A stretch of DNA of 64,000 bases from an uncultured Gammaproteobacteria bacterium (GTDB lineage: Bacteria > Patescibacteriota > Patescibacteriia > UBA9934), in contig CAYFMS010000002.1 of NCBI GenBank assembly GCA_964344415.1, positions 256,593 through 320,592 of the forward strand. Direction: 5' to 3'. Below the pieces are notes generated by a model. That model was not told the origin of the DNA. It saw nothing but the letters and a program-made list of their open reading frames with translations, and did no database searches. Below, piece after piece: positions 8,316-60,836 of this stretch; the first letter of the stretch is position 1, and each line of letters starts with the position of its first letter. Made by a program: the position numbers and the translations under genes.

Positions 8316-8321
8316 ATCATT

Positions 8322-12781: not shown

Positions 12782-12796
12782 ACTTGATCCGTTTTT

Positions 12797-18104: not shown

Positions 18105-18143
18105 AAAGGGTGGCCGTTGGCTGAAGGTTGAGACTGATCTCGA

Positions 18144-18728: not shown

Positions 18729-21212
18729 TCATCTCCCTATCGGTGCGGGTGGTGGGACGGTCTTTCTACGCTGGCCTATGCCAGCACGCTCTGCTATTTC
18801 AGATTCAACATTAGCTTTTGGCCGACCATAGCCCAAACGTGAAATATCTTTAAGTGTATGCATTAATTCTGCATTTGGATCTTCTGGAGCATTCGTTTTG
18901 AGCGTAAATGGCTTTAATTGTGCATTATTCGCAATAATTTTTGCATTCCAAGTATATTTATCGGTATTCATCAAATCATATGATGTAAAGATTGGGTCAA
19001 ATACCTTTCCGAGCACCTCAACATCTTCAGGACCAACTCGGGAAACAAGCATTGTTCCCACATTTCCAAGAACAGCGTCACGAATCTCCGTCTTCCCGTC
19101 CTGCACGAGCTGCCCCATATATTGATGCGCGAGTACCAAATTAAGGCGATATTTCCTCGCCTCGGACAGAATGGTCGCAATAGAAGGAGTAATAAAGTTC
19201 TGGAACTCATCAATGTAAAGGTAAAAATCACGGCGCTGATCTTCTGGCAAATCTGTTCGCGTAAATGCTGCCATTTGCAATTTTGCAACCAGAATCAATC
19301 CAAGAAGATTCGCATTGACCTCTCCCGTCGCGCCCTTTGAAAGATTCACGAGTAATATTTTGCCTTCGTCCATGATTTCACGAAAATCAAAAGCTGACTT
19401 TGATTGACCAATAATATTACGCATCATTTCATTCTCGACAAATCTACCGACCTTGGACACCAAATACCCCATCATTTCAGATTTGTGATAATCACTCGTT
19501 TTCGCCATTTCATCTTCCCAGAATGACCTCACAACTGGATCGGTTACTTTCGCCACCCATTCCTTCTGGAATTTCTCATCTGAAATCATGCGTGGAATTT
19601 CTGCAAGCGTACCCGGATTATCGAGATCCGCCATCAATGTGAGCATAAAATTACGCATATTGTGCTCAAACATTGGACCAATCATTTCCGGCGGGAAAAG
19701 CATATAGAAAATAGAAATCATTTCCTGCACGGCAAAATCGCGCATATTCTCATTCGGCGCTTCGAGCATATTAAGCCCCATTGGCCTTTCCATATCAGAT
19801 GGATTGAAATACACGACATCATCAATGCGTTCGCGCGGAATAGAACCCATAATGGCATCGACAAGATCTCCATGTGGATCAATCACTGCAACACCTTTGC
19901 CAGCCTTGATGTCCTGAAGGGCCATATATCGCAAAAAATACGATTTTCCAGATCCTGTTTTTCCAACAAGATACATATGCCGACGGCGATCTGCATCATC
20001 GAGGAATACTTCTGTTCTATCACCTCGATAGAGATTATAACCAAGATGAAGCCCATCCTGAGGAACTCCAGCTGGCACTGGTGCCGTCCGCGCTTGCAGC
20101 CAACGAATTCCCGGTGTTTCTGTTGTTGGGAGAGGTAAATGCCAAAGCGAGGCCATTTCTTCCGTATTCAAAATGACTTTCTGTGATTCATCGAATTGAC
20201 GATAAATATAGTCCCGCAAAAGCCGTTTTTTGCTTGAAGGAACTTTTACTTCAAATGCATTCCCAATTTCATAAATATTAAATTGACTGAATGCTTGCAG
20301 GACACGATTCATGTCTGCCTCAGCCGACGGAGCTGATTTGCTTGAAGCAATAATGCGAATATTCACATCCATGCCCGCCTTACTGACCTTTTCTGAAATA
20401 CCTTCCGCCATTTGCTCATCTGACTTGGTCGGTTGGCGACGCTCCATCTGTTCACGCTTTTGGTCTCGAGTTTCCTTTGACTGCAATGCAGAACTCCAAG
20501 ATTCACCTCCAGAACGAATCGCCTGATCATAATTCAAACCTTTACGTAAATTATCGGCAATACTTCTTGCGCGTGATCGCCAATCTTTCTTTGCACTGCG
20601 TACAATAAATTGCACGGCAAGCCCTTCATCATCCGACACTTTTGAAAGAGCATTCGTTAAACCACTGAGCGGATCACCTTCAATTGTCTTAAATGTGCGA
20701 ATAGGAAGTGTATGATGCCGTTTTAATTTCAAATACCCACCGACAATAACCCCCTGTGCATGGAAAATATTGTGATCCTGAACCAATTCAATATGAGCAT
20801 CAGGATACTGTGCATGTAATTGCTGCTCAACAAATTCCTGCATGTAAATAGGCGTCGTCACATAGAATGTGATTAATTTTTCATGAGCTACGATCTCAAG
20901 AGCGATTTGATCTGTTCGACCATAAAACCACGCCGAAAGACCTCGCTGCGCCTTCATTCCGCCAATGGCAGCATAAAATGTTTCTGCAATAGCTATTTTT
21001 TCATCAACTTGCTGCTGGCTGCTCGTTCCTCTATCTTCATCACTTTTATATTTCGGAACGGTGATCATGAATGTTTTCAGATAACTCGCACCCCCTTGAA
21101 CAAATTGTCGTCGACGTACAAATGAACGCAATAGCATCAGTACAAAAAATGCCAGGATAATCGCCCCCAGTACAATTCCGATCACAACAAATAACCGTAT
21201 AATTTCCTCCAT
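18729..21212 (-). CDS. Membrane-anchored P-loop ATPase of the FtsK/HerA/VirB4/VirD4 superfamily (type IV secretion / conjugative-transfer-like). In this copy the ATPase is fused to an N-terminal membrane plus soluble domain.
   Basis: 827 aa with an N-terminal TM helix. Residues 40-330 are homologous to the separate 527-aa protein at 55910..57493 (FYVTTPIYMQEFVEQQLHAQYPDAHI aligns with FYIRTQAKTRDLVEAALYAQYPEAQV). The C-terminal half carries Walker A YLVGKTGSGKSY, DPHGD, Walker B DFYLYIDEFQNF and SEARKYRLNLVLAHQYMGQL (Arg-finger / sensor region). This half is about 55-60% identical to the 687-aa protein at 53842..55905. Confidence 0.65.
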   Translation of the reverse strand: MEEIIRLFVVIGIVLGAIILAFFVLMLLRSFVRRRQFVQGGASYLKTFMITVPKYKSDEDRGTSSQQQVDEKIAIAETFYAAIGGMKAQRGLSAWFYGRTDQIALEIVAHEKLITFYVTTPIYMQEFVEQQLHAQYPDAHIELVQDHNIFHAQGVIVGGYLKLKRHHTLPIRTFKTIEGDPLSGLTNALSKVSDDEGLAVQFIVRSAKKDWRSRARSIADNLRKGLNYDQAIRSGGESWSSALQSKETRDQKREQMERRQPTKSDEQMAEGISEKVSKAGMDVNIRIIASSKSAPSAEADMNRVLQAFSQFNIYEIGNAFEVKVPSSKKRLLRDYIYRQFDESQKVILNTEEMASLWHLPLPTTETPGIRWLQARTAPVPAGVPQDGLHLGYNLYRGDRTEVFLDDADRRRHMYLVGKTGSGKSYFLRYMALQDIKAGKGVAVIDPHGDLVDAIMGSIPRERIDDVVYFNPSDMERPMGLNMLEAPNENMRDFAVQEMISIFYMLFPPEMIGPMFEHNMRNFMLTLMADLDNPGTLAEIPRMISDEKFQKEWVAKVTDPVVRSFWEDEMAKTSDYHKSEMMGYLVSKVGRFVENEMMRNIIGQSKSAFDFREIMDEGKILLVNLSKGATGEVNANLLGLILVAKLQMAAFTRTDLPEDQRRDFYLYIDEFQNFITPSIATILSEARKYRLNLVLAHQYMGQLVQDGKTEIRDAVLGNVGTMLVSRVGPEDVEVLGKVFDPIFTSYDLMNTDKYTWNAKIIANNAQLKPFTLKTNAPEDPNAELMHTLKDISRLGYGRPKANVESEIAERAGIGQRRKTVPPPAPIGR

Positions 21213-21213
21213 A

Positions 21214-21687
21214 TTAGCGATGACTTTGATAATAATTCAATATTTTATCTGTTTTTATTTTAGATTCTTGTTCAAGGAAAAAATGATTCACCCCTGGAAT
21301 CATGCCGAGCCATTCACGAATGAGGTCTAAAATCTTTTTCACTTTCATACGGCCAGATTCATACATTTGAACAATAGCCACTGCCACTTCTTCCCCTTTG
21401 ATCTTAAATTTTTGTTGTGATTCAGTATCCATCGAAAGGTATGCATCGAGTAAATCTTCTGCCAAAATATCCTCAACAGCCTGCAATACGACTGATTTCT
21501 GTGGAATATGTTCAGCCGGCTGAACAGCAGGAGCTTGGCGGCTTTCATGAATATCAACTGCTAATTCATGGTCAGTTTTTGGCTGCTCAGCGGTTGATTC
21601 CGGTTTTGATTCAAACTGAAAATCCGGCGAATGGTCAGCCTGTTCAACTTTTGGAATACTTACCTTCTCTTGACGCTCCTTTTCCAT
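21214..21687 (-). CDS. Hypothetical acidic protein, probably co-transcribed with the downstream ATPase (2-nt gap)
   Basis: 157 aa with no motifs. Tight coupling with the gene at 18729..21212. Confidence 0.45.
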   Translation of the reverse strand: MEKERQEKVSIPKVEQADHSPDFQFESKPESTAEQPKTDHELAVDIHESRQAPAVQPAEHIPQKSVVLQAVEDILAEDLLDAYLSMDTESQQKFKIKGEEVAVAIVQMYESGRMKVKKILDLIREWLGMIPGVNHFFLEQESKIKTDKILNYYQSHR

Positions 21688-36700: not shown

Positions 36701-39700
36701 AGTGTCATCCCACTTATAGTAGATATAGTTATCATCACCATTTGAAACAAAACGCGTTGCATTTCCAGGGGTGTTTGAATCATGGAACTCAATACGTTCA
36801 ACTTGACCAATAGTACCAGCAGTTCCAATTCCAAGAGTATCTTGGAAAAGAAGATTACCATCAATATATACATGATTTTCTACACCAAGACTGTCTGCAA
36901 TAAAGACATCGTCACCACCAAGCGAGAAAGAGGCATTTTCAATTGTTTCTGTAGCAGATCCAACCGTAAGATCGCTTCCAAAGTCAGCATCGCCGTCAAC
37001 ATCAAGCGTGCCATCAATGAATGTTGCACCTTCGATTCCAGCTGTTCCCGCTACAAATAGATCATCTCCTCCAAGAGTAAATCCGGCCTCATCAATCGTT
37101 TCCGTACTAGAAGTTGAACCTCCAACGATAAGATCTTCGTCAAATCGAACATCTGCAGCATCTGCCCAAAGCGCATATGTATTTGCGCCGGCAATATATG
37201 TTCCATAATCAAATGTAGACGCATCGATTCGAATACCGGTACCAATACCACCCGTTTCCGTTGTTTGTGTAATCTTAATTGCATCAATTTCACTTGTTGC
37301 ATTATCTGAAGCATTTCCGTCTAGATCGATAGATAGCGCACCCTTTTGAATACCTGCACTCAATGCATTGATCACGTCGGATTCTATTCCAACCGCGAAT
37401 TGATCATCAGATGTACCTGTATATAAATTGTGAGAGAATGTCGTTTTTGCCTGGCTCGCCTCATTCGTATTCCCGCTGAAAGTAAGTTCATCATCAGCAC
37501 CACCGACATTAACAAGAAGATTTTCTCCCGGTGCAATCGTAAAGCGATTTGCGGTAGCTATTGACGTATTTCCGCTGCCAGATTCAGAAATGCTAAAAAT
37601 ATCAGTACCGGCGCTATTTTCAAATATAGCAAGTTCATTTGTTTGCGTTGAGTGACCCTGCACCAAGAACTGCACCTCATCCGTATCACCATCTACTGAG
37701 AGTTTTGCAAGAGAAGCTCCTCCAATACCAACATTGTCTGTCGAAGTAGTGAGAGTGATATCTGTTCCTCCGTCTGTCCATCCTGCTGCCTCAGAAATAC
37801 CTCCATCAAGGATGGTGAACTCAGCCGCAGAAATAAGTGTTCCGCCTATATCGAAGAGATTCGTGAATCCTCCACCAGCGTCAATAGTCTTGAAGACGGT
37901 TCCGACAGCGTCATCTGTGTCTGAGTTATCTGCAACAAAGAGAGCGTCGAGACCTTCTGTAGAAGCTGCATTATCTAGATAAAGTCCATATTGAGCTGTC
38001 GTTGAACTTGTTGTGTCTTCTGCTGTGAAGGTATGTACAACTCCATTTTCGCTCGTTGCATCTGTAAGCGTTCGAGCTATAGACCATGTTTCTCCTGCTG
38101 TACCAGTGATGCTCGTTGCAGCATCGAGGGCCAATGCATCTGCAAATTCTGTAAAGTCAAGAGTGTCTGCCGTAAGATCTGCTCCGTCTACATTAGATAG
38201 AGAGTTTCCTGTTCCATTCGCGTCGAAGGCAACGCCTGTGATTGCTCCTGTCGTTGAGATGTCCCAGTCAGAAGAGTTTACAGAAACCGTTCCATTATTA
38301 TCACCAAGTGTAATTGTATTTGACCCACTTACAACGAATGCTCCGTCTGTTGTATCAATGGTAACTTGATCAAGAGTTGTCGCTCCATCCGCATCAAGTG
38401 TTGATCCAAGCGTTGTTGCACCAACAACATCAAGTGCTCCGTCTGTATAGATATTTCCCTCAATTCCAGCCGTTCCTGCAACGAAGAGATCATCTCCACC
38501 AAGTGAGAAGCTTCCATTTGAGAGTGTTTCTGTAGCTGATGTCGATCCACCAACAACCAGATTTTCATCGAAGCGCACATCATCGGCGTCTACGAAAAGT
38601 GCCAATGTATCCGCACCTGCTACGTAAATACCATAATCAGTAGTGGCAGATGTTTGATCATCAACATATACACCATATGCCGTTGTAACAGCAGCCGTTC
38701 CGCCAAGGTTTGGATCCGCGACATTCAAACCACGAAAATCAGTAACCGCGGTAGCACCTGCAATAGTTGAAGATGCGTCAAAAATAGTTAAGCTTGGCAT
38801 GGTCGCGTCACCAGAAAGAGATGTATAAGCTCGGACAACATCTGCCTCTGTAATAGTGTGCGCATCACCCGCAGCTAAATCAACAACAGAGAAAACACCA
38901 CCACGAGCATCAGAAACCGTACCGGTGAATCCGTCATCGATCCAAGCCTCACCCACAATACCGTTTATTGAGTTAATTGTACCTGCGGACTGTCTTACAT
39001 TTGCACGTGCGGCATTTCCATAGTATGTACCGGTATCATTTGTTCCATTATCTGCAATGGAAAGGTTAACTGCACCCCAGTTATATGAACCCGTGTCATC
39101 ACTACTTACACTTCGGATGTTCTTTGTTGTAAAAATACGTGTGTTATTTTCAGACACCTCGTCGAACACATTTGAAACGAATGCAACTGTATTATTTCGA
39201 ACAAATGGATATGTGTCAGAGAAATCATTACCAAGTGCCCAAATCGCATCAATCCCAGTAGATCCCCCCAGTCCAAAATCTTCTGGATCACCCAAGCGCA
39301 TGACTTCAGTGCTGTTAATATTCCAAAGCTGAGATGTGTCATCATTCATGTCAATGACCAAATCATTACCAGTTGCATCCCAAGAAATAGCAGCATCGGG
39401 ATCAGCAGCCGTATTACCAAATGTTAATTCAATATCATCAGCTAGATGAGCCTGACTATTTACCAAAATATCACCACTAACCGTCAGTTCATTCGCAAAC
39501 GTTACATTTCCGTTATCTGCGAAGGTTGCAAAAGGAGTTCCAGCATCTTGAATAACAAAATCCTCAGTATTATTGAGGTTTACGACTAAATCACCAGATC
39601 CATCCACCGTAATTGACTGGCCATTATTGTATGCATCATCAAGAGATGTATCCGTTGTTAACGCCAATGTCCCTGTTGAGGTTGGAAGTGTAAGCGTAAT

Positions 39701-51947: not shown

Positions 51948-52067
51948 ATGACTGGCCAAATGTGATGCGAGTATATGGGAAAAATAAGTGAATGTCAATC
52001 CTACGCTCTGCTTACACGTTTATGATAAATTAAAAACCCAGTATTTTCATACCAGGTTCGACGCCCC

Positions 52068-52319
52068 CTACGTCCGCACTTTTTTCATTACCGGCAGCTC
52101 ATTTGCCTCTGCCACATAAGACAGAGTTGGCATCGCCCCGTTGATTCGGAGCTTTTGACCAGCGAACTTTTTGATTACGGCATCACGACATGGCTGGCCA
52201 TATTGTACATTTACACGTCCATGCACCCATCCCTTTACCTTTCCATTCACAGCCACTTTCTGCCCACGCCCAAGCGGGATGTTGTGACCGCAGTGAATGC
52301 ACTTCTCGATCGTTGGCAT
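52068..52319 (-). CDS. Hypothetical small zinc-ribbon-like protein
   Basis: Start set at MPTIEKCIHCGHN, preceded by GAGGAGG. The Cys/His pairs (CIHC...H...C) suggest a zinc ribbon. Confidence 0.4.
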   Translation of the reverse strand: MPTIEKCIHCGHNIPLGRGQKVAVNGKVKGWVHGRVNVQYGQPCRDAVIKKFAGQKLRINGAMPTLSYVAEANELPVMKKVRT

Positions 52320-52490
52320 ACTTTCCTCCTCATATGCAACGTAAAGCCTAAATATAATACAAAATTGGGCTAAAAAGTCAATAACCAAAGCATAAAATGA
52401 AAAGTGAGTAAATGTGCTTATCTTTTATAATTTTTAAGATAATGGTTTTAAATAATATAGCTAATATTAGTATGAAAATCATCTTTTGCG

Positions 52491-52519
52491 ATTGACACAT
52501 CCCTTGAATCATGCTAATA
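52491..52519 (+). promoter_or_regulatory. Candidate sigma70-like promoter (TTGACA-N17-TAATAT) for the 52582 gene
   Basis: ttgacacatcccttgaatcatgctaatat lies in an AT-rich spacer about 60 nt upstream of the GTG start. Confidence 0.35.
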
Positions 52520-52581
52520 TTTTGAGTCATTGTTTGACTGAGGGCTTCGTATTGACACCCTTGTAAAAAATTGGAGGAACG

Positions 52582-53007
52582 GTGCAAAACAATCTTGAAA
52601 TCAACATCGCTCGTGACGAGCTTGCGTCCCTTGTGGATGCTCGCTACAAAATGCGCGAGATGACAAAACGTGTAGACGAGGCAAGTAATCGACTCGCCTA
52701 CCTCACCGCTACGGCGATGGTGGTAGTCGACAACGGACAAGATGTCAGGTGCCTGGGGGTTTCTCCCGAGGCCGAGGCCAAACTGATGAGGTTGCGATTC
52801 AACATCATCAGCAACGACATCATCTCCGTCACCTTCTACGCTGGTGACGAGAAGGTGTCCTTCCACCTGCAGCCCGGAGGGATGATGAGCTTCATCATCA
52901 CCGACATGCAAAACGATACTCGGATCTACAAGATCTGGGCTTTCGAAAACGAGGTCGATGCCGGAGCGTGGATGTCCAAACGACTGGCGGACTACTCGGC
53001 GCGCTAG
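52582..53007 (+). CDS. Hypothetical protein encoded in a moderately GC-rich segment. Probable GTG start.
   Basis: 141 aa ORF. GGAGGAAC lies upstream of the GTG. No motifs. Its composition is GC-richer than neighbouring housekeeping genes. Confidence 0.45.
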   Translation: MQNNLEINIARDELASLVDARYKMREMTKRVDEASNRLAYLTATAMVVVDNGQDVRCLGVSPEAEAKLMRLRFNIISNDIISVTFYAGDEKVSFHLQPGGMMSFIITDMQNDTRIYKIWAFENEVDAGAWMSKRLADYSAR

Positions 53008-53069
53008 CACACCTTACACGTCTCAGCAATTCTATTGCAGGGGCGTGTTTTTTTATTTGTTCAACTTCC

Positions 53070-53852
53070 TCAAACAAAGAAAAGCAATAGTACTAATCCA
53101 AGTACTATCCGATATATGGCGAACCATTTATAACTCATTCTTTGTATGAGTTTGAGGAGAAAATGAATGGCAAGAGCTCCGAAAATAGCAGAAGACACAA
53201 ATCCGATCGTAAGAATTGGCATCGAGGTGACAAATCCTGTCTGCATAGCATCAATGAGTGTCATAAATCCTGCGCCGGCGACGGCAGGTATCGCAAGTAA
53301 AAATGAGAAGCGAGCAGCTGCCCTGCGGTCAAGGCCCGCGAATAAGCCAGCTGTCATTGTGATCCCAGAACGCGATGTTCCGGGAATCAATGCTATCACT
53401 TGCGCTACTCCAATAATTGCAGCTTTTCCTAAACTCATTTTTTCTATATTGGCAATATGCCCCTTAATCTTATCGCTATACAAATCGGCAATCCACAAAA
53501 TAATTCCCCAGAAAATAAGAGAAGCTGCCACAATCGTCGTCGTTCGAGTTATTAGGAGGAAATCATCAGTAATAAATAGCCCCGCTAGTACAATTGGAAC
53601 AGTAGCTAATCCAATTGCAAGTAAAAGCCTCGGCTTTTTTATTGCTAAAATGATGTCTGACCGCATCATCCAACAAATCGCAAGAAGCGTGCCCAAGTGA
53701 ACCATGACATCAAAATCGATCGACTGCTGCTCCCAGCCGAATATCGACGGTAATGCGATCAAGTGTCCCGAACTCGAAATCGGTAAAAACTCCGTTATTC
53801 CTTGAATAGCGCCAAGGACAATGGCCTGAATCACGGTCATATTAATTATCAA
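53070..53852 (-). CDS. uppP: Undecaprenyl-diphosphatase
   Basis: 260 aa. BacA/UppP signatures: GITEFLPISSSGHL and PGTSRSGITMTAG. Confidence 0.9.
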   Translation of the reverse strand: MIINMTVIQAIVLGAIQGITEFLPISSSGHLIALPSIFGWEQQSIDFDVMVHLGTLLAICWMMRSDIILAIKKPRLLLAIGLATVPIVLAGLFITDDFLLITRTTTIVAASLIFWGIILWIADLYSDKIKGHIANIEKMSLGKAAIIGVAQVIALIPGTSRSGITMTAGLFAGLDRRAAARFSFLLAIPAVAGAGFMTLIDAMQTGFVTSMPILTIGFVSSAIFGALAIHFLLKLIQRMSYKWFAIYRIVLGLVLLLFFV

Positions 53853-55905
53853 AGTTTATGATTTTCCCCGGTTTCAGAGGCTTTGCATTATTCGCATCCG
53901 ATTGCACTTCTGTCTGCCCAGACTTTTTTCGACGACGCCGTCTTCTTTTTCGCTTTTTCGAAGGCTTTTGATCAGAAGGGAGGTTTTCTAGTTGTTCAGG
54001 ATCTGATCTTTCAGGGCTTGGCTCTTTCACATCAGTAGGGGGATTTGACGGCTCTGATACTGGCGCATCATCTGAAACCGTATCAGCAATCGTGGCCACA
54101 TGCTTATCTTCGCCAACACGCAAATCAGAAAGCGCTTTTCCAACTTCGCTCGCCTTGCTGAATTTCGCATCCTCGTTCGGCGTCATTGGTCGCTTTCCGA
54201 CATATTCAAGCTGATGTTCATGATCGTCTGACTGACCTGTCGGATCCGCTGCTTTATCCTCGACTTTCTTCTCATCTTTCTGTGAGTTGTCTTTCTTCGT
54301 CAATTCTTGAAGTGAAATCTCTTTTCCAACCTTTTTTTCAACAACCTCTCCCTCTTTCACACTTGGAGGTTTTTTAACAATATTCTTCTCCTTTTTCTTT
54401 GACTCTGCTTTACGGACCTTACCCTTCGTACGCTCCTCTTTAATAATCGGATGGCAATCCTCGCAATAAATAGGCCGCGAACGATCAAGCTCAACCGGCA
54501 ATTCAAATTCCTTATCGCAGCGCGTGCAATTATATTTATGCATGTATTTCTGCTTCTTGGCTGCCTTTTTGGCCGCTTTCACCTCAGCCATCTTTTCCTC
54601 GACATCAATATCGGCACCGAAACCACTCCACTCAAATACACGTTCTTCAATTTTTTCGCGAGGCTTCGCATAGCGCTCGCGAGTCTGTTCAACAATTTTC
54701 GGCGTACTTTCTGTTTCATGCGCCACCGGAGGCAGTGTCACCGCAGAAAATGGCTGTGATGTTACACCATCAATCATCAATTTCAAATATACATTGAATT
54801 TCGGCAAATTAATGAGATCTTCCGGAACAAAGCGAGGAGCAAACTCATCCTCCATAAACTGTGCATCGGGCGCACCGACACGGAATGTCACAATGGTTCC
54901 AACGTTCCCAAAAACCGCATCCCGCACCTCTTCCGTCAATTGCGCAATATATTGATGCGCCATGATCAAATTCAGACGATATTTCCGAGCCTCAGACAGA
55001 ATCGATGCAAAAGATTCAACGGCAAAGTTCTGAAATTCATCAACATAGAGATAGAAATCCTGACGTTCCTCCTCTTTCATATCGACACGCTCCATCGCCG
55101 CCATCTGGATTTTTGTAATAAGCATTCCACCAAGTAGCCGAGATGCATCCTCACCAATTGCACCCTTTGAAAGGTTTACGATGAAGATTTTCTGACTATC
55201 CATGATATTACGTATATCAATCGTTGACTTCGCTTGCGCAACAATATTTCGAATAATGGCAGCAGAAATGAATTGACCAACTTTGTTCTGAATCGGCGCA
55301 ACCGCTTCTGTAGCAAATTTACTCTGATAGGACCCGAATTCTTGAACCCAAAACTGCTTAACGATTGGGTCTTTAATATTCCCGATGATTTTCTTTCGAT
55401 AATCCTCATCAGAAAGCATGCGATTAATGCCTAGCAGCGTCGTCCCAGGCGTATCAAGAAGCGCCAGAATAGTGTTATTCATGATGTATTCCATTCGAGC
55501 CGACCAAACACCTTCCCAAATTTTCTTAAACACGCCCATCAATCCAGCAGCAACCAAATGCTTCTTATCTTCTTCAACCGCCTCCAAAATATTAAAGCCG
55601 ATTGGGAATTTTAAATCAGCCGGATTGAAATATACGACATCATTTATACGCCATGACGGAATGCGGTCAACGATTTTCTCAGCAGTATCTCCATGCGGAT
55701 CAATATAGCAACAGCCATGCCCCGCATAAATATCAGAAAGAATGAGATTTTCAAGCAGCGTCGTCTTTCCCATTCCGGTTTTACCAATGACATACATATG
55801 CCGACGACGATCGTCAGTTTTAATACCGAATACTTTCATCTGATTTCGGAAATTCACCTTTCCAAAATAGATGATGTCATTTTCGTGATCATGTTCGTAT
55901 TGCAT
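53842..55905 (-). CDS. P-loop ATPase of the FtsK/HerA/VirB4/VirD4 superfamily (type IV secretion / conjugative-transfer-like) with C-terminal zinc ribbon and poly-Lys/Arg tail. Paralog of the C-terminal half of the 827-aa protein.
   Basis: 687 aa. Walker A YVIGKTGMGKTT, DPHGD, Walker B DFYLYVDEFQNF and SEARKYRLNLIMAHQY. Then CTRCD...CEDCH (a four-Cys/His ribbon), a long Lys/Glu-rich disordered tail and a terminal KKRKRRRRRRKK. Confidence 0.65.
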   Translation of the reverse strand: MQYEHDHENDIIYFGKVNFRNQMKVFGIKTDDRRRHMYVIGKTGMGKTTLLENLILSDIYAGHGCCYIDPHGDTAEKIVDRIPSWRINDVVYFNPADLKFPIGFNILEAVEEDKKHLVAAGLMGVFKKIWEGVWSARMEYIMNNTILALLDTPGTTLLGINRMLSDEDYRKKIIGNIKDPIVKQFWVQEFGSYQSKFATEAVAPIQNKVGQFISAAIIRNIVAQAKSTIDIRNIMDSQKIFIVNLSKGAIGEDASRLLGGMLITKIQMAAMERVDMKEEERQDFYLYVDEFQNFAVESFASILSEARKYRLNLIMAHQYIAQLTEEVRDAVFGNVGTIVTFRVGAPDAQFMEDEFAPRFVPEDLINLPKFNVYLKLMIDGVTSQPFSAVTLPPVAHETESTPKIVEQTRERYAKPREKIEERVFEWSGFGADIDVEEKMAEVKAAKKAAKKQKYMHKYNCTRCDKEFELPVELDRSRPIYCEDCHPIIKEERTKGKVRKAESKKKEKNIVKKPPSVKEGEVVEKKVGKEISLQELTKKDNSQKDEKKVEDKAADPTGQSDDHEHQLEYVGKRPMTPNEDAKFSKASEVGKALSDLRVGEDKHVATIADTVSDDAPVSEPSNPPTDVKEPSPERSDPEQLENLPSDQKPSKKRKRRRRRRKKSGQTEVQSDANNAKPLKPGKIINFDN

Positions 55906-55909
55906 GTGA

Positions 55910-57493
55910 TCAGGTTGGTAAATTAGTAGGAGGCTCGTGATTCGCTTCTATTTGAGCAATATCGAGTCCTGGCGGAAGTGGTGCCGGCATTCCAGCGCGA
56001 GGCATGCGGTCTACGCTTTCTTTTGGCGATGTGTCGACAGGCGGCTGAACCGAATCTGAAAAAGCTGTATCCGCTTCTGGCTTCTGATGACCAATTCCCG
56101 GAACAGCAAGAGGCTTTCGCTGCGGTAATGATGTTGCCTTCTCACCGGCAGTAATGCTCTTCGGCGCAGAAAAGTCAGGAAGCAGATTTTCATCAGATTC
56201 ACTAAATGCCAATTCCACCGGAGCCTCGGCTCGACGTGCTTGAACAGATGTAAGCACAGGAGTACGTGCATCTGCAGCAGGGAAATGCCAAAGCGTAGCA
56301 AGCTCCTCGACATTCATAATAAATGGCGTAGACCCTACTCCCATTGTCCGTTTTTTATAACGACGTACCAGTTCGCGCTGACGACCTGGTAATTGCCATT
56401 CAAGCCATGGATAGTCATCCTGCGGAGTTGCCTTTGCCCAGAAACCAAGTCCATTCAACCCCTCATAAGAATACTGGTTAAACAGCCCTTTAGACATCGC
56501 TGAAATAGAAGACTTATTAAACACTTCATGTTTTGCGAAATACACAAAGCGCATCTTTGCGCGGAATCCATATTTCGATATTTTTCGGTTTACCGCCTCA
56601 ATCTGCTCCTTTTCACGCGGCGTAATTTTAAATGCAACGAAATCGTCCTGTTTCTTTTCTTCCGCGCCACTTGGCAATGCATAACCAACCGTCTGATTCA
56701 ACGCCTCATTCACCCACCAACCACCGACACCTTCCATCATACCTTTTTTCTTCGGAGCTTCTCGGCCAAAAACCTTATCAATGAATTCGACTCCCTTCTT
56801 TTGCCATTCCTGTTCAGCAGGCGGCATAATCATGAGTTGAATGAAGTAATTCTCCCCCTCCTTCATGGACCCAAGAATTTCAAGCAAACCGAGAAGTGGA
56901 TCTTTCAATCTCTGGTCTTTTTCCCCCTGATGTTCAAAATCAACCCAAGTCTTAATTGGCTTAAAATTCTCAGCCTTCATTCGAATCTCACTCCCCCACA
57001 TATCCCATGTATCATTCGGATAGTCCGTCGGGATCATATCAACATAGTCCTCCACCTCTGTGACCTGCGCTTCTGGATACTGTGCATAAAGTGCCGCTTC
57101 AACGAGATCTCGTGTTTTGGCCTGTGTTCGAATATAAAAACTAATGCGACCACCCACACTCACAATTTCGAATGAGTACCAAGCTTGGAATTTTCCATCA
57201 AACCATTTTTCTTTAAATGTAACAGCAGATTTTGCACCGTGAAGCGTGAGGAAAAAATTCTCAATTCCTTTTGGCGTCTGAACAGCATCTTTTGGCACAT
57301 TTACATGAAGCAGATGCCATTTTATACGGCCCGCAAATTGCCCCTGCCTTCGGTCAAGCCATAACTGCAGGAATCCCCAAACAAGCACTCCAAAAATGAC
57401 AACAGGAAAAATAAAAAACAAAATATAGGCTCCAATAACATCAGGTGGAGTTGTCTGAACCAGATTTACAAAATTCGCTAGCCACTGAGGCAT
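55910..57493 (-). CDS. Membrane protein partner of the ATPase, homologous to the N-terminal half of the 827-aa protein
   Basis: 527 aa. N-terminal TM helix (VIGAYILFFIFPVVIFGVLVWGF), then a soluble domain with HVNVPKD...FYIRTQAKTRDLVEAALYAQYPEAQV that aligns to residues 40-330 of the 18729..21212 product. Pro-rich C-terminus. The 5-nt gap to the ATPase gene implies co-transcription. Confidence 0.6.
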   Translation of the reverse strand: MPQWLANFVNLVQTTPPDVIGAYILFFIFPVVIFGVLVWGFLQLWLDRRQGQFAGRIKWHLLHVNVPKDAVQTPKGIENFFLTLHGAKSAVTFKEKWFDGKFQAWYSFEIVSVGGRISFYIRTQAKTRDLVEAALYAQYPEAQVTEVEDYVDMIPTDYPNDTWDMWGSEIRMKAENFKPIKTWVDFEHQGEKDQRLKDPLLGLLEILGSMKEGENYFIQLMIMPPAEQEWQKKGVEFIDKVFGREAPKKKGMMEGVGGWWVNEALNQTVGYALPSGAEEKKQDDFVAFKITPREKEQIEAVNRKISKYGFRAKMRFVYFAKHEVFNKSSISAMSKGLFNQYSYEGLNGLGFWAKATPQDDYPWLEWQLPGRQRELVRRYKKRTMGVGSTPFIMNVEELATLWHFPAADARTPVLTSVQARRAEAPVELAFSESDENLLPDFSAPKSITAGEKATSLPQRKPLAVPGIGHQKPEADTAFSDSVQPPVDTSPKESVDRMPRAGMPAPLPPGLDIAQIEANHEPPTNLPT

Positions 57494-57745
57494 AATCAGG
57501 GCCAGTATACCATGATTTGTTTTGCGGCAGAGAGGGAGATAAAAGAGATTTAGGAGATTGAAGAGATTCTGGTCGTGCAGTGAACTTTATTTACGCAGCA
57601 ATTAGGGAGTAGAAAATAGCACGTATACATAAAATAGTCCGTACGGACGAAAAAGTGCAGAACTTTTAATGGCTCACTCGTCTCGAGCATTCCATATAAG
57701 TACCGATCGACACTTAAGCTCGGAAGGATCATTTGAACTCCACGG

Positions 57746-57969
57746 GATTCCGGCTCAGAGGCTGGAATGACGATTTCTGATGGATCCCGGATCTCCGCTT
57801 CGCTTCGTCCGGGATGACACCGTATCTTGGTTTATGAAACATAAACAGATACCGTGTCAACTGCGTTCTATGTTCTACTCCATCATTGCTACGCAAACGA
57901 TAATCCGTATATCCGCATCATCCGTAAATCTGTAACGGCAACACTACACCCTACACCCTACAACCTAAC
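57746..57969. repeat. Dispersed intergenic repeat, family 1 (extended copy with extra internal hairpins), ending at the secF stop codon
   Basis: gattccggctcagaggctggaatgacg, then inserted hairpins (CCCGGAtctccgcttcgcttcgTCCGGG and gacaccgtatc...gataccgtgtc), then atccgtatatccgcatcatccgtaaatctgtaacggcaac, then ctacaccctacaccctacaacct. Upstream at 57530..57745 are family-2-like motifs (gagataaaagagatt, agagattctggtcgtgcagtga). Confidence 0.6.
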
Positions 57970-58861
57970 TAGACCGTTTCTTCTGCCAAAGAACAAGAAG
58001 TGGGCTTGCTAGGAAGATCGAGCTATATGCACCAGAAGCTACACCAATAATGAGCGCCAAAACAAATGACTTTGTCGTCTCTCCGCCAAAAAAGTAAACA
58101 GCGAGCAAAACAAGCAATGTCGTAAGAGATGTATTGATAGACCTTGCAAAACTTTGCACAACACTTCGATTCACAATTTCTGAAAATTTTGTGTCAGCAT
58201 GACGATCTTCAATCAGATTTTCACGCGTTCGGTCGAAAACAACAATTGTGTCATTAATCGAGTAACCGAGAATGGTAAGCATCGCCGCGACAAAAGCCGT
58301 ACCGATCTGATATCCCATCACTTCACCAAGAAGCGCGAAAATACCGAGCGGAATCATGATGTCATGAAGCGCTGCAACAATAGTCAGAATTCCATATTTC
58401 CATGACGATACAGGTTCAGAAACCTTTCGGAATGCCCATGCGACGTAAAGAATAATTAGCAGAATCAATATTCCAACAGCGATAAAAGATTTTCGCTTCA
58501 GCTCTTCGCCGATAACCGGACCAATCGATTCAAATCGTAATTCTTCGAATGCTCCAATTCGCTCCTCGAGTGCCGTCAAAAGCGATGAATGCTCTTCCGG
58601 AGTCAATGTTTGCAATCGAATCAAGGCATCGCCGCTCTCCCCTGGCTGAACCGTGCTCACATATCCAATCTCATCAATATATTCACCCAAGACAACAGAA
58701 TCGATTTCTTGCTCCATTCGAAGCTCGATGAGACTTCCACCCGTGAATTCAATACCAAGATTCAGACCAAAGACAGAAATACTGATAATCGATGCAATGA
58801 CAAGGAGTGTAGAAATCCCTAACCAAATCTTTGTTTTTCCAATGACGTCAAAATACTTCAT
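57965..58861 (-). CDS. secF: Protein translocase subunit SecF
   Basis: 298 aa. Typical SecF N-terminus (LGIEFTGGSLIE) and six TM helices. Confidence 0.9.
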   Translation of the reverse strand: MKYFDVIGKTKIWLGISTLLVIASIISISVFGLNLGIEFTGGSLIELRMEQEIDSVVLGEYIDEIGYVSTVQPGESGDALIRLQTLTPEEHSSLLTALEERIGAFEELRFESIGPVIGEELKRKSFIAVGILILLIILYVAWAFRKVSEPVSSWKYGILTIVAALHDIMIPLGIFALLGEVMGYQIGTAFVAAMLTILGYSINDTIVVFDRTRENLIEDRHADTKFSEIVNRSVVQSFARSINTSLTTLLVLLAVYFFGGETTKSFVLALIIGVASGAYSSIFLASPLLVLWQKKRSS

Positions 58862-58862
58862 A

Positions 58863-60836
58863 TTATTTCTTCTTTACTCCATAGAGCCAGTTCTTTTTGA
58901 ATGGCTTCAATGAACTTGTGAATTGCAAGAGTACACGCGTACCAAGAATTGCTGTTAGCATCGAAACGATAATACCAATCGACAATGTAAGTGCGAATCC
59001 CTTAATGAAACTCGTACTCATTGTGAATAGGACAACGGCGGCAATAAGTGTCGTGAAGTTTCCGTCACGAATCGATGTCCAAGCGCGGCGGAACCCTTCA
59101 TCAATCGCCGTACGCAAGTCTCGTCCACTTCTCAACTCCTCTTTCAGCCGCTCGAAAATAAGCACATTTGCATCAACCGCCATACCAATCGACAGCACAA
59201 ATCCGGCAATTCCAGCGAGAGAAATAGTCACACCAAGTAATTTATAGAGAGCTAAGTTAACTCCCGTGTAGAGCATAAGCGCTAGAACAGCGAGGAATCC
59301 CGCAAGGCGATAATATGCTGTCATGAAGAGTGCAACCAGAATGAGTCCAATAATTGCCGCTTGAATACTGCGCTGCAATGACTCCTGACCGAGCGTTGGA
59401 CCGACGGTTTGTTCACTCAGAAGGTCAATCGGTACCGGAAGTGCTCCGGCATTTAAACGCTGCGCCAAAAGCCGAGCATCCTCGAGCGTAAATTGCCCCG
59501 TTATTGTTGCGCTTCCTCCGTAAATAGCCTGCTGAACAACTGGAGTGGAAATTGCCTGCCCATCAAGGAAAATTCCGATCACATTTCCAACATGACTTTC
59601 GGTAATTTCCTCAAACAATTGTCCGCCCTCTGAATCAAAATCGAGAATGACATATGGCGCGCCCGTTAACTGATCAAATCCAACCGAGGCATTACGAATT
59701 TGCTTTCCAGAAAGATCCGTATTCTCCCATGGATCTACCTGCAAAATATCAGATGACGTCGTCCACGGCATTTCAATATGCGCAATTTCGTATTCTGGAA
59801 TAATAATTGTGTCCTGACGATAAATAATGTGATACCCAAATTCCGTTTCAACGATACTTGAAATATCGCCATCATCGAGCGCCTTGTAAGCATCTTCGAA
59901 TGCTGAAACCATTTCACCTGACTTCACAATACCGAGTGACCCACCATTCGTAGCAGAAGGCCCATCAGAATTCTCTTCGGCTAAAGTGGCGAAATTTCTC
60001 GTCGTCGCATCTTGTTGAAGGTCGCGAGCGATAACCTCGGCCTCAACTTTATTTCTTGTTTCAGAACAACGACTCGCACCGTCATAACAGATGAGAATAT
60101 GTGAAAGTTCCACCTCTTCACGCTCACGTTCAGAAAGGAAATTCACAATATGCATTGCACTTGTTGATTCATATAGACCATCAATGACACCCGTTTTCAA
60201 TCTGTCATCCGTAATGCGCTCAGCCAAACCATCAAAAATCGAATGATTCTCGTCAATATATCCGATGTATCCATTATTTGAATTTGTTGATTCATCGATA
60301 GATAATTCGCCGACCAAGTCGTCAAAGCTCTCACCATCAAGCGCACGGTCAAGGGCATCAAGTGCATTCGATCGCTCAATTTCTTGTGCCTCGTCTATTT
60401 CAATCTGTTGTTCATCCGTCAATTCCGCCTCAACAATGTCAACAGGCACTTTGAACTCCAAGATTGGCGTTTCTCCAATCAAACTAATCGCTTCATTGAC
60501 ATCAAAAATCCCCGCCAATTCGATAATAACTCGATAATGTCCACCAGAAATATTTGTTTGTACAACCGGTTCAGATACACCATACGCATTCACGCGGCGT
60601 TCAATAACATCGCGAACACCTTCAAGTGCAGATACACGATCCCCTTGCGGAATCTCTGTCATGTCCGCTTCGTACACAAGGTGAACTCCGCCTTGTAAAT
60701 CAAGACCAAGCTTAAATGGCTCACCGCCATCTTTTGGACCAAGGCCTATAGCATTCAAACTCGTCGGGAATGCAATTCCTATCGATGTAAGGAAAATGAG
60801 CAAAAGTGCGACAACTCCAATAATTCGTCCTTTCAT
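58863..60836 (-). CDS. secD: Protein translocase subunit SecD with a parvulin-type PPIase domain inserted in the periplasmic region
   Basis: 657 aa. SecD N-terminal TM helix and periplasmic P1 region (GLDLQGGVHLVYEAD), then a C-terminal 6-TM bundle. In between, HILICYDGASRCSETRNKVEAEVIARDL...GGSLGIVKSGEMVSAFEDAYKAL...ETEFGYHIIYRQD matches the PpiC/parvulin rotamase signature (GG.LG ... FG.H.I). Confidence 0.85.
   Translation of the reverse strand: MKGRIIGVVALLLIFLTSIGIAFPTSLNAIGLGPKDGGEPFKLGLDLQGGVHLVYEADMTEIPQGDRVSALEGVRDVIERRVNAYGVSEPVVQTNISGGHYRVIIELAGIFDVNEAISLIGETPILEFKVPVDIVEAELTDEQQIEIDEAQEIERSNALDALDRALDGESFDDLVGELSIDESTNSNNGYIGYIDENHSIFDGLAERITDDRLKTGVIDGLYESTSAMHIVNFLSEREREEVELSHILICYDGASRCSETRNKVEAEVIARDLQQDATTRNFATLAEENSDGPSATNGGSLGIVKSGEMVSAFEDAYKALDDGDISSIVETEFGYHIIYRQDTIIIPEYEIAHIEMPWTTSSDILQVDPWENTDLSGKQIRNASVGFDQLTGAPYVILDFDSEGGQLFEEITESHVGNVIGIFLDGQAISTPVVQQAIYGGSATITGQFTLEDARLLAQRLNAGALPVPIDLLSEQTVGPTLGQESLQRSIQAAIIGLILVALFMTAYYRLAGFLAVLALMLYTGVNLALYKLLGVTISLAGIAGFVLSIGMAVDANVLIFERLKEELRSGRDLRTAIDEGFRRAWTSIRDGNFTTLIAAVVLFTMSTSFIKGFALTLSIGIIVSMLTAILGTRVLLQFTSSLKPFKKNWLYGVKKK

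What the first reader, a model, noticed from the sequence alone, without database searches (positions are those of the whole stretch)
53842..57493. Two-gene module: membrane protein plus VirB4/VirD4/HerA-superfamily ATPase, duplicated elsewhere in the window as a single fused gene
The 527-aa membrane protein and the 687-aa P-loop ATPase (Walker A GKTGMGKT, DPHGD, DEFQNF, ARKYRLN..AHQ) are collinear with the N- and C-terminal halves of the single 827-aa ORF at 18729..21212. Finding a split and a fused version of the same system in one genome means the two parts act together. The ATPase motifs place it in the conjugation / T4SS / DNA-translocase superfamily, yet no relaxase or other VirB components are nearby. 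A stand-alone membrane-anchor plus translocase-ATPase pair of this kind is not a textbook system. It could drive DNA or protein transfer in an episymbiont.
Basis: partly seen in the sequence, partly recalled or inferred. Interest (0 to 1): 0.7.

Follow-up and report, generated by a model that had tools for sequence, protein, structure and literature searches.

The report
Split coupling-type secretion ATPase, fused paralogue
A tiny-genome Patescibacteria (CPR) bacterium keeps two old copies, one as a single gene and one stably split into two genes, of a membrane-anchored motor ATPase that on plasmids couples DNA to a conjugation channel, but here it has no relaxase or channel genes nearby, so its job is still unknown.

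Summary
ORFs 55910-57493(-) (527 aa) and 53842-55905(-) (687 aa), 4 nt apart, are collinear with the 827-aa ORF 18729-21212(-): 24% identity (E 3e-24) and 42% identity (E 3e-111).

The split is real and old. All 75 related loci are split, and these ATPases form one clade. In this clade the pair overlaps uppP downstream and lies after secDF.

On Bacillus, actinomycete and haloarchaeal plasmids and in Bacillus phages, homologues sit beside a MOB_C relaxase gene, in clusters with a separate true VirB4. The family therefore fills the coupling-protein slot there.

In Patescibacteria the relaxase and channel genes are absent nearby. The literature already records such orphan T4CP homologues, about two per genome.

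Verdict: a new variant of a known kind. The function in this organism is inferred, not shown.

The parts
55910..57493 (-). Gene 1 of the split module: a 527-aa DUF8128 (PF26449) protein, the membrane anchor plus a VirB4-N-terminal-like domain.
   Evidence: ORF. PF26449/DUF8128 annotation. AF2 model with pLDDT 80. Structural matches to VirB4.
57359..57433 (-). Single N-terminal transmembrane helix (about aa 21-45). The predicted orientation is N-out and C-in, which puts the rest of the protein in the cytoplasm.
   Evidence: Hydropathy and flanking K+R counts of 0 versus 4. A long helix at aa 17-56 in the model. The orientation is inferred from the positive-inside rule.
56264..57325 (-). DUF8128 core domain (about aa 57-410), a mixed alpha/beta fold.
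55913..56248 (-). Disordered C-terminal tail of gene 1 (aa 416-527), ending in a conserved Pro-rich motif (GMPAPLPPGLD...NLP). It may be a docking peptide.
   Evidence: pLDDT below 50. The docking role is inferred.
53842..55905 (-). Gene 2 of the split module: a 687-aa T4CP-like P-loop ATPase with no transmembrane segment.
   Evidence: ORF. Pfam TrwB_AAD_bind 41.7 bits (cut-off 20.5), T4SS-DNA_transf 25.7 (20.1) and TraG-D_C 24.4 (22). No hydrophobic segment.
54616..55905 (-). ATPase core (aa 1-430), including Walker A GKTGMGKT (nt 55762-55785) and Walker B DEFQNF (nt 55024-55041).
54451..54546 (-). CxxC-x17-CxxC zinc ribbon (aa 454-485; Cys 460, 463, 481 and 484).
   Evidence: Pfam zf_Tbcl_2 E 8.7e-6, 25.8 bits, just under the 27-bit cut-off. 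NCBIfam TIGR04272 E 2e-5, below its cut-off. The first ~60-136 residues of the tail (about 105 in most loci), which include the zinc ribbon, are conserved in most orthologous loci.
53845..54450 (-). Long low-complexity K/E/P-rich tail (aa 486-687), including KKRKRRRRRRKK at aa 649-660.
   Evidence: Composition and charge profile. Nucleic-acid binding is an inference only.
53070..53852 (-). uppP/bacA (undecaprenyl-diphosphatase). It abuts or overlaps the ATPase stop, so it is the third gene of the operon in this clade.
   Evidence: PF02673 BacA. The ATPase stop to BacA start distance is 20 nt or less in 44 of 48 loci, with a median of -10 nt.
57965..60836 (-). secD-secF, the conserved upstream neighbours (context, and probably a separate transcription unit).
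   Evidence: Pfam annotation. SecF lies upstream of the DUF8128 gene on the same strand in 63 of the 79 loci, with a median gap of 121 nt and never 20 nt or less.
18729..21212 (-). Fused paralogue (827 aa): transmembrane helix (about aa 5-30), DUF8128 and T4CP-like ATPase in one chain.
21214..21687 (-). 157-aa ORF ending 1 nt before the fused gene. It may be a small partner protein, but this is uncertain.
   Evidence: A small same-strand ORF lies directly upstream of the fused gene in most of 80 loci. These ORFs fall into at least three families unrelated by sequence. The 157-aa ORF has no Pfam hit.

Best explanation
**What it is.** The locus encodes a type IV coupling-protein-like (T4CP/VirB4-clade) motor ATPase that has been split into two translationally close genes.

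- Gene 1 makes a single-pass membrane anchor followed by a cytoplasmic DUF8128 domain. The predicted fold of that domain resembles only the N-terminal domain of VirB4.
- Gene 2 makes the P-loop motor, with intact Walker A and B motifs and a helical insertion. It also carries a zinc ribbon and a long basic tail.
- The 827-aa gene 35 kb away is the unsplit, ancient paralogue.

**Where the family comes from.** On monoderm and archaeal plasmids and in some Bacillus phages, this protein sits next to a MOB_C (Replic_Relax) relaxase gene. Those clusters also contain a separate true VirB4, a VirB6/TrbL and a VirB3/PrgI. So there it is the coupling ATPase of a Gram-positive-type conjugation system. In Patescibacteria both copies are chromosomal, vertically inherited and stripped of the relaxase.

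**Most likely mechanism (inferred, not shown).** The DUF8128 protein tethers the ATPase to the inner face of the membrane. The ATPase forms a ring, as its relatives do, and uses ATP to deliver a substrate to a membrane channel. The channel is most probably the Patescibacterial T4SS encoded elsewhere in the genome. The substrate could be a protein or a nucleic acid, and the zinc ribbon and basic tail hint at nucleic acid.

**Shown versus inferred.** Shown: the architecture, the family placement, the conserved pairing, the age of the split and the plasmid contexts. Inferred: the topology, the oligomer, the partner channel and the substrate.
For: - **Collinearity.** E 3e-24 and E 3e-111.
- **T4CP sequence signature.** T4CP Pfam families score above their gathering thresholds in both copies. 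TrwB and DotL are the nearest solved relatives by sequence, at E about 1e-5, against 0.12 for VirB4.
- **DUF8128 assignment.**
- **N-domain fold.** Two independent methods match the DUF8128 model only to TrwK/VirB4. No P-loop protein appears in that hit list, so the match must be to the VirB4 N-terminal domain.
- **Conserved pairing.** The pair is adjacent and split in 75 of 75 loci where both genes could be located. Split ATPases form one clade nested in the fused diversity.
- **Fused form is widespread.** It spans CPR diversity at 38-56% identity.
- **Both paralogues co-occur.** Proteins from the two hit lists share the same longest-contig length in at least 11 cases, which suggests one contig carries both.
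- **Mobile-element contexts.** Embleya plasmid: VirB6-like, PrgI, VirB4-type ATPase, DUF8128-T4CP, Replic_Relax, NlpC/P60. pBM69: DUF8128-ATPase, Replic_Relax, and a separate TcpF-type VirB4. Halorussus plasmid: a separate 376-aa DUF8128 gene overlapping a T4CP-like ATPase gene. Phage G: TrbL, VirB4-type ATPase, DUF8128-ATPase. Phage CampHawk: 906-aa homologue followed by Replic_Relax.
- **Relaxase identity.** Replic_Relax corresponds to MOB_C (PMC5357655).
- **Literature.** Patescibacteria have an essential T4SS whose cluster lacks a recognisable coupling protein (PMC10633639). They also have about two orphan T4CP homologues per genome (PMC12102498).
Against: - No T4SS channel gene or relaxase lies in the window or near 158 of 159 related loci.
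- According to PMC12102498, T4CP homologues occur in more genomes (2,918) than VirB4 does (2,417). The same paper reports that the Southlakia homologue is not essential while the T4SS is. Both facts weaken an obligatory T4SS-coupling role.
- NCBIfam T4CP models score far below their cut-offs, for example 42 bits against 366.
- The canonical two-helix VirD4 membrane domain is absent.
- The VirB4-N-domain link rests on predicted structure only. Neither Pfam nor a TcpF-type VirB4 profile detects it by sequence.
- I did not verify one by one that the published 'T4CP homologues' are this same family. I infer it from the database names attached to the homologues.
Confidence: 0.6

Rival explanations
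1. A T4SS-independent nucleic-acid translocase. In this reading the membrane-anchored ring pumps DNA or RNA into or out of the cell through some other channel. This would support the scavenging lifestyle of Patescibacteria, by analogy with archaeal Ced or Helicobacter ComB DNA importers.
For: - The family is more widespread than VirB4 in Patescibacteria (2,918 versus 2,417 of 3,035 genomes), and it is dispensable in Southlakia where the T4SS is essential.
- The split copy carries a zinc ribbon and a strongly basic tail.
- There are weak NCBIfam matches to CedB and CedD.
- dprA lies divergently upstream in several Moraniibacteria-like loci.
- A 2026 preprint reports uptake of host RNA by a Patescibacterium.
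Against: - No candidate channel is linked to the genes.
- The CedB and CedD matches cover only the P-loop region and are far below their cut-offs.
- The dprA linkage is confined to one clade.
- Deleting comEC abolished competence without affecting viability in Southlakia (review PMC12857230).
- All non-CPR relatives with an informative context are in conjugation-type clusters.
Confidence: 0.2
2. A housekeeping envelope or division factor. The motor would act in chromosome segregation like FtsK, or in envelope biogenesis or export, as its fixed place between secDF and uppP might suggest.
For: - The ATPase gene overlaps uppP in 44 of 48 loci, and secDF lies just upstream in 63 loci.
- dnaX lies just downstream of the fused copy in this window, and a DnaX-like gene is among its neighbours in 15 of 80 loci.
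- Both loci sit in purely housekeeping neighbourhoods.
Against: - The secDF and uppP synteny is lost in the more distant split loci, which keep only the pair.
- The FtsK_SpoIIIE Pfam scores are below the cut-off: 20.0 and 13.9 bits against 24.
- Compact CPR genomes often keep unrelated genes in tight operons (this point is from my own knowledge).
Confidence: 0.1
3. A remnant of an integrated conjugative element, prophage or defence island, rather than a host function.
For: The family matches PHROG 5156 (E 3e-83) and PADLOC mad8. Homologues occur on plasmids and in phages. A 62% GC island lies just downstream of the fused gene.
Against: - The same chromosomal synteny holds in dozens of species, and the ATPase is 61-86% identical across them.
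- No Replic_Relax relaxase gene was found by tblastn in the 2.26 Mb of window plus CPR loci searched. In a Pfam census of the 148 genes flanking the fused copy in 20 loci, phage-integrase families matched only 2 genes, and no methyltransferase partner or other mad gene was evident.
- The family is near-universal in the phylum according to the literature.
Confidence: 0.05

Closest known systems
Type IV coupling proteins (VirD4, TrwB of R388, TraG/TraD, DotL)
   Different: The protein lacks the canonical N-terminal two-helix membrane domain. It has one helix plus a ~350-aa DUF8128 domain instead. In Patescibacteria it is chromosomal, has no relaxase, is present as two paralogues, and one paralogue is split. 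NCBIfam T4CP models score far below their cut-offs.
VirB4 (TrwK of R388; VirB4 of Thermoanaerobacter pseudethanolicus, PDB 4ag5)
   Different: There is no sequence-level match to the VirB4 families (no AAA_10 or CagE_TrbE_VirB hit), and VirB4 scores only E 0.12 in the PDB profile search. A TcpF-type VirB4 profile does not detect DUF8128. In every plasmid or phage cluster I examined, a separate bona fide VirB4 is present beside it.
Uncharacterised DUF8128-type coupling ATPases of monoderm and archaeal mobile elements (Embleya plasmid WP_331738717, B. methanolicus pBM69 WP_003349917, Bacillus phage G gp156, PHROG 5156, Halorussus plasmid pair)
   Same: They share the two-domain architecture. The Embleya protein is 30.7% identical over aa 127-774 (E 2e-66). 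The DUF8128 profile matches the pBM69 protein at 96% probability and the Halorussus 376-aa protein at 90%. A split form also exists in haloarchaea.
   Different: Those copies sit in conjugation-type clusters with a MOB_C relaxase, VirB4, VirB6 and a cell-wall hydrolase. The window's copies sit among housekeeping genes with none of these. To my knowledge none of these relatives has been studied experimentally.
Split or accessory VirB4 N-terminal modules (TrsD of pGO1; VirB3-VirB4 fusions)
   Same: The concept is the same: a VirB4-N-terminal-like or membrane-anchor part can be a separate gene or be fused to the motor. PMC12102498 describes TrsD as remotely related to the VirB4 N-terminus and abundant next to virB4 in Patescibacteria.
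   Different: There is no detectable similarity between the DUF8128 profile and pGO1 TrsD (probability 0.2%). TrsD accompanies the true VirB4, not this ATPase.
HerA/FtsK-type translocases and related defence ATPases (HerA, FtsK, DptH/DndH, MADS mad8)
   Different: There is no NurA, Sir2, Dnd or other mad partner gene. The FtsK Pfam score is below its cut-off and there is no FtsK gamma domain. The membrane anchor and the DUF8128 domain are not features of those families.

Membership tests
Type IV coupling protein (VirD4/TraG/TraD/TrwB) | A P-loop nucleotide-binding domain recognised by the T4CP Pfam models above their gathering scores. | tested here: met
   Scores for the 687-aa and 827-aa proteins respectively: TrwB_AAD_bind 41.7 and 41.3 bits (cut-off 20.5), T4SS-DNA_transf 25.7 and 34.9 (20.1), TraG-D_C 24.4 and 24.4 (22).
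Type IV coupling protein (VirD4/TraG/TraD/TrwB) | An N-terminal membrane domain with (typically) two transmembrane helices directly preceding the motor. | tested here: not met
   The 687-aa ATPase has no hydrophobic segment. The anchor is one helix followed by a ~350-aa DUF8128 domain, either in a separate protein or fused.
Type IV coupling protein (VirD4/TraG/TraD/TrwB) | Genomic linkage to a relaxase and/or T4SS mating-pair genes. | tested here: not met
   Nothing of this kind lies in the window. Across 2.26 Mb of related CPR loci there is no Replic_Relax gene, and only 1 of 159 loci has VirB4 and PrgI nearby. The feature is met in plasmid and phage homologues.
Type IV coupling protein (VirD4/TraG/TraD/TrwB) | Passing a curated NCBIfam T4CP model (TraD, CD1115-type VirD4). 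| tested here: not met
   The best matches are SXT_TraD at 42-46 bits against a cut-off of 366, and conju_CD1115 at about 40 bits against 250.
Type IV coupling protein (VirD4/TraG/TraD/TrwB) | Hexameric ring that binds substrate and hydrolyses ATP. | not testable with these tools
   The Walker A, Walker B and Q motifs are intact. Oligomeric state and activity need experiments or multimer modelling.
VirB4 | A VirB4-type N-terminal domain. | tested here: inconclusive
   [not shown]
VirB4 | A C-terminal ATPase recognised by the VirB4 sequence models (AAA_10, CagE_TrbE_VirB, TraC). | tested here: not met
   [not shown]
VirB4 | Encoded within a T4SS cluster with VirB3, VirB6 and VirB8. | tested here: not met
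   On plasmids a separate true VirB4 fills that role.
DUF8128 (Pfam PF26449) | A match to the PF26449 model. | tested here: met
   The database entries identical in sequence to the window's two proteins (P0121 and P0001) carry precomputed PF26449 hits, named DUF8128. My local Pfam copy lacks the model.
FtsK/SpoIIIE | The FtsK_SpoIIIE motor domain above the Pfam cut-off, plus a polytopic N-terminus and a gamma domain. | tested here: not met
   [not shown]
HerA | HerA central and C-terminal domains with a NurA (or Sir2/other) partner gene. | tested here: not met
   DUF87 is above its cut-off only in the fused copy (40.8 bits). HerA_C scores 12.6 bits against 22. No partner gene is present in either neighbourhood.
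MADS defence system (mad8) | A mad8-like ATPase together with the other mad genes and a methyltransferase. | tested here: inconclusive
   The PADLOC mad8 model matches at E 1e-20 and 5e-16. No other PADLOC model matched the adjacent proteins tested, and the neighbours are housekeeping genes. The match most likely reflects a shared ATPase fold.

The most novel reading that the evidence does not exclude
DUF8128-type ATPases may be a third, ancestral-looking branch between VirB4 and the coupling proteins: a coupling protein that still carries the VirB4 N-terminal domain. In Patescibacteria the two domesticated paralogues may no longer serve conjugation. Instead they may power T4SS-linked or T4SS-independent uptake of host nucleic acid (RNA or DNA), which these nucleotide-auxotrophic epibionts need. 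In this reading the zinc-ribbon and basic tail of the split copy would be the nucleic-acid handle.
Probability: 0.12. Interest if true: 0.85.

Novelty: new variant of a known kind. Interest (0 to 1): 0.5.

Why it matters
Patescibacteria are a large share of bacterial diversity, and they depend on moving macromolecules across the interface with a host cell.

- **An open question in the literature.** Their T4SS is essential in the one species tested genetically, yet its gene cluster lacks a recognisable coupling protein and relaxase. Meanwhile about two orphan coupling-protein homologues per genome sit elsewhere with no assigned role.
- **What this analysis adds.** It gives those orphans a defined anatomy: a single-pass anchor, a VirB4-N-terminal-like DUF8128 domain and the motor. 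The two copies in this lineage are an ancient fused/split paralogue pair with different tails and fixed neighbourhoods. It also traces them to coupling ATPases paired with MOB_C relaxases on Gram-positive and archaeal mobile elements.
- **Why that helps.** It suggests concrete experiments: double knock-outs, interaction tests with VirB4 and VirB6, and nucleic-acid binding by the tail.
- **Evolutionary interest.** A coupling protein that retains a VirB4-type N-terminal domain bears on how the two T4SS ATPases diverged.

Tried and rejected
1. **Frameshift or pseudogene origin of the split.** Rejected. The two ORFs are in different frames with a TGA stop between them, and all 75 analysable loci are split.
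2. **Sequence-level proof that DUF8128 is a VirB4 N-terminal domain.** Not obtained. There is no PDB sequence hit, no CagE/TraC Pfam hit, and hhalign against a TcpF-type VirB4 alignment gives 0.2% probability. Only the end of the N-domain plus the P-loop aligns between the full-length profiles (76%).
3. **Relation to pGO1 TrsD, TrsE and TrsK.** Uninformative with single-sequence targets.
4. **A single conserved small partner upstream of the fused gene.** Iterative HMM searching from the 157-aa ORF united only 13 loci. hhalign links clusters 10, 24 and 25, but not clusters 3 or 4. The ORF is therefore conserved in position only.
5. **T4SS genes near the fused paralogue.** A Pfam census of 148 neighbours found only housekeeping families. 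A tblastn search with reference proteins found a T4SS-type cluster in one locus only, L123.
6. **Promoter and terminator scan of 52000-58500.** The counts equal the shuffled expectation, so the scan is uninformative.
7. **Unavailable resources.** The afdb50 fold library was not available. pLS20 (AB615352) is not in the plasmid collection. I therefore found no experimentally studied member of the family.
8. **The rest of this genome.** I could not check whether the 768-kb contig encodes VirB4, VirB6 or FtsK, because only the window and its 10-kb flanks are readable.
Full report
**1. Observation**

The stated ORFs are present. On the minus strand, 55910-57493 encodes 527 aa and 53842-55905 encodes 687 aa. 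The 827-aa ORF lies at 18729-21212.

BLASTP aligns the 527-aa protein to residues 5-380 of the 827-aa protein (24% identity, E 3e-24). It aligns the 687-aa protein to residues 386-813 (42% identity, E 3e-111). The split and fused versions are therefore collinear well beyond chance.

The two split genes are separated by a TGA stop and 4 nt, and they lie in different frames.

The window comes from a 768-kb metagenomic contig (ENA ERZ930061). Homologues of both proteins are named Patescibacteria or Uhrbacteria by their sources.

**2. The parts**

*ATPase.* In both copies the ATPase passes the Pfam gathering scores for the coupling-protein families TrwB_AAD_bind, T4SS-DNA_transf and TraG-D_C. FtsK_SpoIIIE and HerA_C stay below their cut-offs. 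NCBIfam gives only sub-threshold matches, led by TraD and VirD4-like models. Among solved structures, TrwB and DotL are nearest by sequence (E about 1e-5), against 0.12 for VirB4.

*527-aa protein.* It has no hit in my local Pfam copy. The database entries identical in sequence to the window's two proteins, and their homologues, carry precomputed PF26449, which is DUF8128. It has one hydrophobic helix near the N-terminus, with no K/R before it and four after it. The 687-aa protein has no hydrophobic segment, and the fused protein has one N-terminal helix. By the positive-inside rule (established knowledge; an inference here), DUF8128 and the motor are both cytoplasmic.

*Tail of the split ATPase.* Uniquely, it carries a CxxC-x17-CxxC zinc ribbon (aa 454-485; just below the Pfam and NCBIfam cut-offs). 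A K/E/P-rich tail of about 200 aa follows, with a KKRKRRRRRRKK run. The first ~60-136 residues of the tail (about 105 in most loci), which include the zinc ribbon, are conserved in most orthologues.

**3. Structure**

AlphaFold2 models built with family alignments are confident: mean pLDDT 80 for the 527-aa protein (many blocks of the folded core, residues 1-410, above 90) and 85 for the fused protein.

- *Which VirB4 domain is matched.* The query has no P-loop domain, and no P-loop ATPase (4ag5, TrwB, HerA) appears in that hit list. The match must therefore be to the VirB4 N-terminal domain.

The protein thus has a VirB4-type two-domain plan, while its motor carries a coupling-protein sequence signature. 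At the sequence level the N-domain link is not detectable, so it rests on predicted structure only.

**4. Conservation of the split module**

A scan of species-representative genomes with the DUF8128 alignment returned 79 loci.

- The ATPase gene lies directly downstream in all 75 loci where both genes could be located (the other 4 are truncated contigs or lack an ATPase match). All 75 are split and none is fused, mostly with 2-15 nt between the genes.
- The ATPase core is 61-86% identical across these loci. The N-domain is 29-60% identical.
- In this clade the ATPase stop overlaps or abuts the start of uppP/bacA in 44 of 48 loci (median -10 nt). secD-secF lie upstream in 63 loci, but always after a gap (median 121 nt).
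- The most distant split loci keep only the pair. They have other neighbours: a Sigma70_r4/HARE-HTH protein, dprA, mnmA or ruvX.
- An exhaustive profile search finds 4,767 DUF8128 cluster representatives. Stand-alone forms of 420-600 aa dominate the top hits.

**5. The fused paralogue**

More than 3,591 homologues exist, all carrying DUF8128 plus T4CP domains. Eighty metagenomic loci at 38-56% identity keep the full-length fusion.

Proteins from the two hit lists share the same longest-contig length in at least 11 cases, which suggests that one contig carries both paralogues.

An NJ tree of ATPase domains rooted on phage sequences places all 74 split-type ATPases in one exclusive clade inside the fused diversity. 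Mean identity is 73% within split, 54% within fused and 41.5% between them. This points to one duplication followed by gene fission, though the tree has no support values.

Neighbours of the fused gene are housekeeping genes such as dnaX, cysS and ribonucleotide reductase, and no T4SS family appears among them.

A small same-strand ORF sits directly upstream in most loci. In this window it is the 157-aa ORF at 21214-21687. These ORFs fall into at least three families unrelated by sequence.

**6. Relatives outside Patescibacteria give the functional context**

*Phages.* The family equals PHROG 5156, of unknown function. tblastn finds it in Bacillus phages.
- In phage G, gp153 is TrbL/VirB6-like, gp155 is a VirB4-type ATPase (AAA_10, P-loop_TraG) and gp156 is the DUF8128-ATPase.
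- In the SPO1-like phage CampHawk, a 906-aa homologue is followed by a Replic_Relax protein and lies near a ParM-like gene.

*Plasmids.* 537 plasmids match the ATPase half, and 24 show the full two-domain span.
- On an Embleya plasmid the order is VirB6-like, PrgI/VirB3-like, VirB4-type ATPase, DUF8128-T4CP (30.7% identity, E 2e-66), Replic_Relax and NlpC/P60.
- On B. methanolicus pBM69 the DUF8128-ATPase (N-domain profile match 96%, E 3e-9) is followed by Replic_Relax. A separate TcpF-type VirB4 is also present (AAA_10, E 2e-119).
- On a Halorussus plasmid a separate 376-aa DUF8128 gene (90% probability) overlaps the start of a T4CP-like ATPase gene. Splitting has therefore happened more than once.

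Replic_Relax (PF13814) corresponds to the MOB_C relaxase superfamily (PMC5357655) and has a PD-(D/E)XK fold (PMC3424549). On mobile elements this family therefore occupies the coupling-protein slot, beside the relaxase and distinct from VirB4.

**7. In Patescibacteria the partners are missing nearby**

tblastn with Replic_Relax, VirB4, TrbL and PrgI references against the window plus 159 related loci (2.26 Mb) finds no Replic_Relax gene. A VirB4/PrgI cluster turns up in one locus only, L123. The window itself holds only type IV pilus parts (PilM and a prepilin peptidase) and housekeeping genes.

This agrees with PMC12102498, which reports the following:
- 5,713 VirD4-type T4CP homologues in 2,918 of 3,035 genomes, only 148 of them near virB4.
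- VirB4 in 2,417 genomes.
- MOB_C as the commonest of the rare relaxases, with 39 relaxase genes close to a t4cp.
- A Southlakia t4cp homologue that is not essential, so the authors say exaptation cannot be excluded.

Wang et al. 2023 found the Southlakia T4SS essential and noted that its cluster lacks recognisable coupling and relaxase proteins (PMC10633639).

I infer that those published homologues are this family. The inference rests on the names that NCBI and JGI give to the homologues. I did not verify it protein by protein.

**8. Mechanism**

*Shown:*
- A conserved two-part ATPase with an intact catalytic core.
- A single-pass anchor on the N-domain part only.
- Strict gene pairing.
- A coupling-protein position in mobile-element relatives.

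*Inferred:*
- The DUF8128 protein tethers the soluble ATPase to the cytoplasmic face of the membrane, as the covalent link does in the fused paralogue.
- The ATPase forms a ring, like its relatives.
- It delivers a substrate to a channel, most probably the T4SS encoded elsewhere.
- The zinc ribbon and basic tail of the split copy hint at nucleic acid.

The main rival is a T4SS-independent nucleic-acid translocase. It is favoured by the wider distribution of the family than VirB4 and by its dispensability in Southlakia. A division or envelope role and a mobile-element or defence remnant are less likely (see the rival explanations).

**9. Novelty and score**

Already known: the ATPase family, orphan T4CP homologues in Patescibacteria, and the DUF8128 Pfam entry. 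No paper in the searchable library mentions DUF8128 or PF26449.

What appears new:
- The VirB4-N-terminal-like fold of DUF8128.
- The ancient fused/split paralogue pair and its fixed synteny.
- The zinc-ribbon tail on the split copy.
- The link to MOB_C-associated coupling ATPases of monoderm and archaeal elements and Bacillus phages.

I rate it a new variant of a known kind, with interest 0.5.

Noticed in passing
window 24704-40420 (-): A giant ORF of 5,238 aa has no Pfam family on record. It may be one of the very large surface proteins typical of CPR genomes.
   Followed up: no
window 18100-18550: A ~450-bp island of 62% GC sits in a genome of about 42-45% GC, directly downstream of the fused gene. 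It holds a 151-aa ORF (18144-18599, minus strand) with a lipoprotein-like signal ending in LTAC, and it overlaps ORFs in other frames. It may be a foreign insert.
   Followed up: partly
window 21214-21687 (-); L085-L164 position -1: A small ORF (about 100-230 aa) with a disordered N-terminal half lies directly upstream of the fused gene in most loci. These ORFs belong to at least three families unrelated by sequence, so they are conserved in position but not in sequence.
   Followed up: partly
[not shown]
   Followed up: no
L005 (Bacillus phage G) 839-6403; L004 (phage CampHawk) 759-6284: Lytic or giant Bacillus phages carry conjugation-like modules. Phage G has TrbL/VirB6-like, VirB4-type ATPase and DUF8128-ATPase genes. 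SPO1-like phages have a ParM-like gene, a 906-aa homologue and a MOB_C-type Replic_Relax protein. Their role in phage biology is unknown.
   Followed up: partly
L123 3187-5547 and 8001-10148: This is the only one of 159 related loci where a VirB4-type ATPase (36% identical to the Embleya plasmid VirB4, E 1e-100) and a PrgI-like gene lie about 2.5 kb upstream of the fused DUF8128-ATPase gene. It may be a mobile element that retains the ancestral arrangement.
   Followed up: no
L141 (about 8001-13200); also L106: Two full-length fused DUF8128-ATPase genes lie in tandem on one metagenomic contig.
   Followed up: no
L078-L081 about 7600-8820 (-): In Moraniibacteria-like loci, dprA (DNA-processing protein A, involved in competence) lies divergently upstream of a Sigma70_r4/HARE-HTH gene that directly precedes the split module.
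   Followed up: no
L006-L073 record titles: Many species-representative MAGs that carry this clearly Patescibacterial locus are titled 'uncultured Gammaproteobacteria bacterium' in their public records. This is probably a labelling artefact of the submission.
   Followed up: no
window 5426-7901 (-): Type IV pilus genes are present in the window: a prepilin peptidase (Peptidase_A24), a 168-aa ORF of unknown function, and PilM. They are about 11 kb from the fused gene.
   Followed up: no
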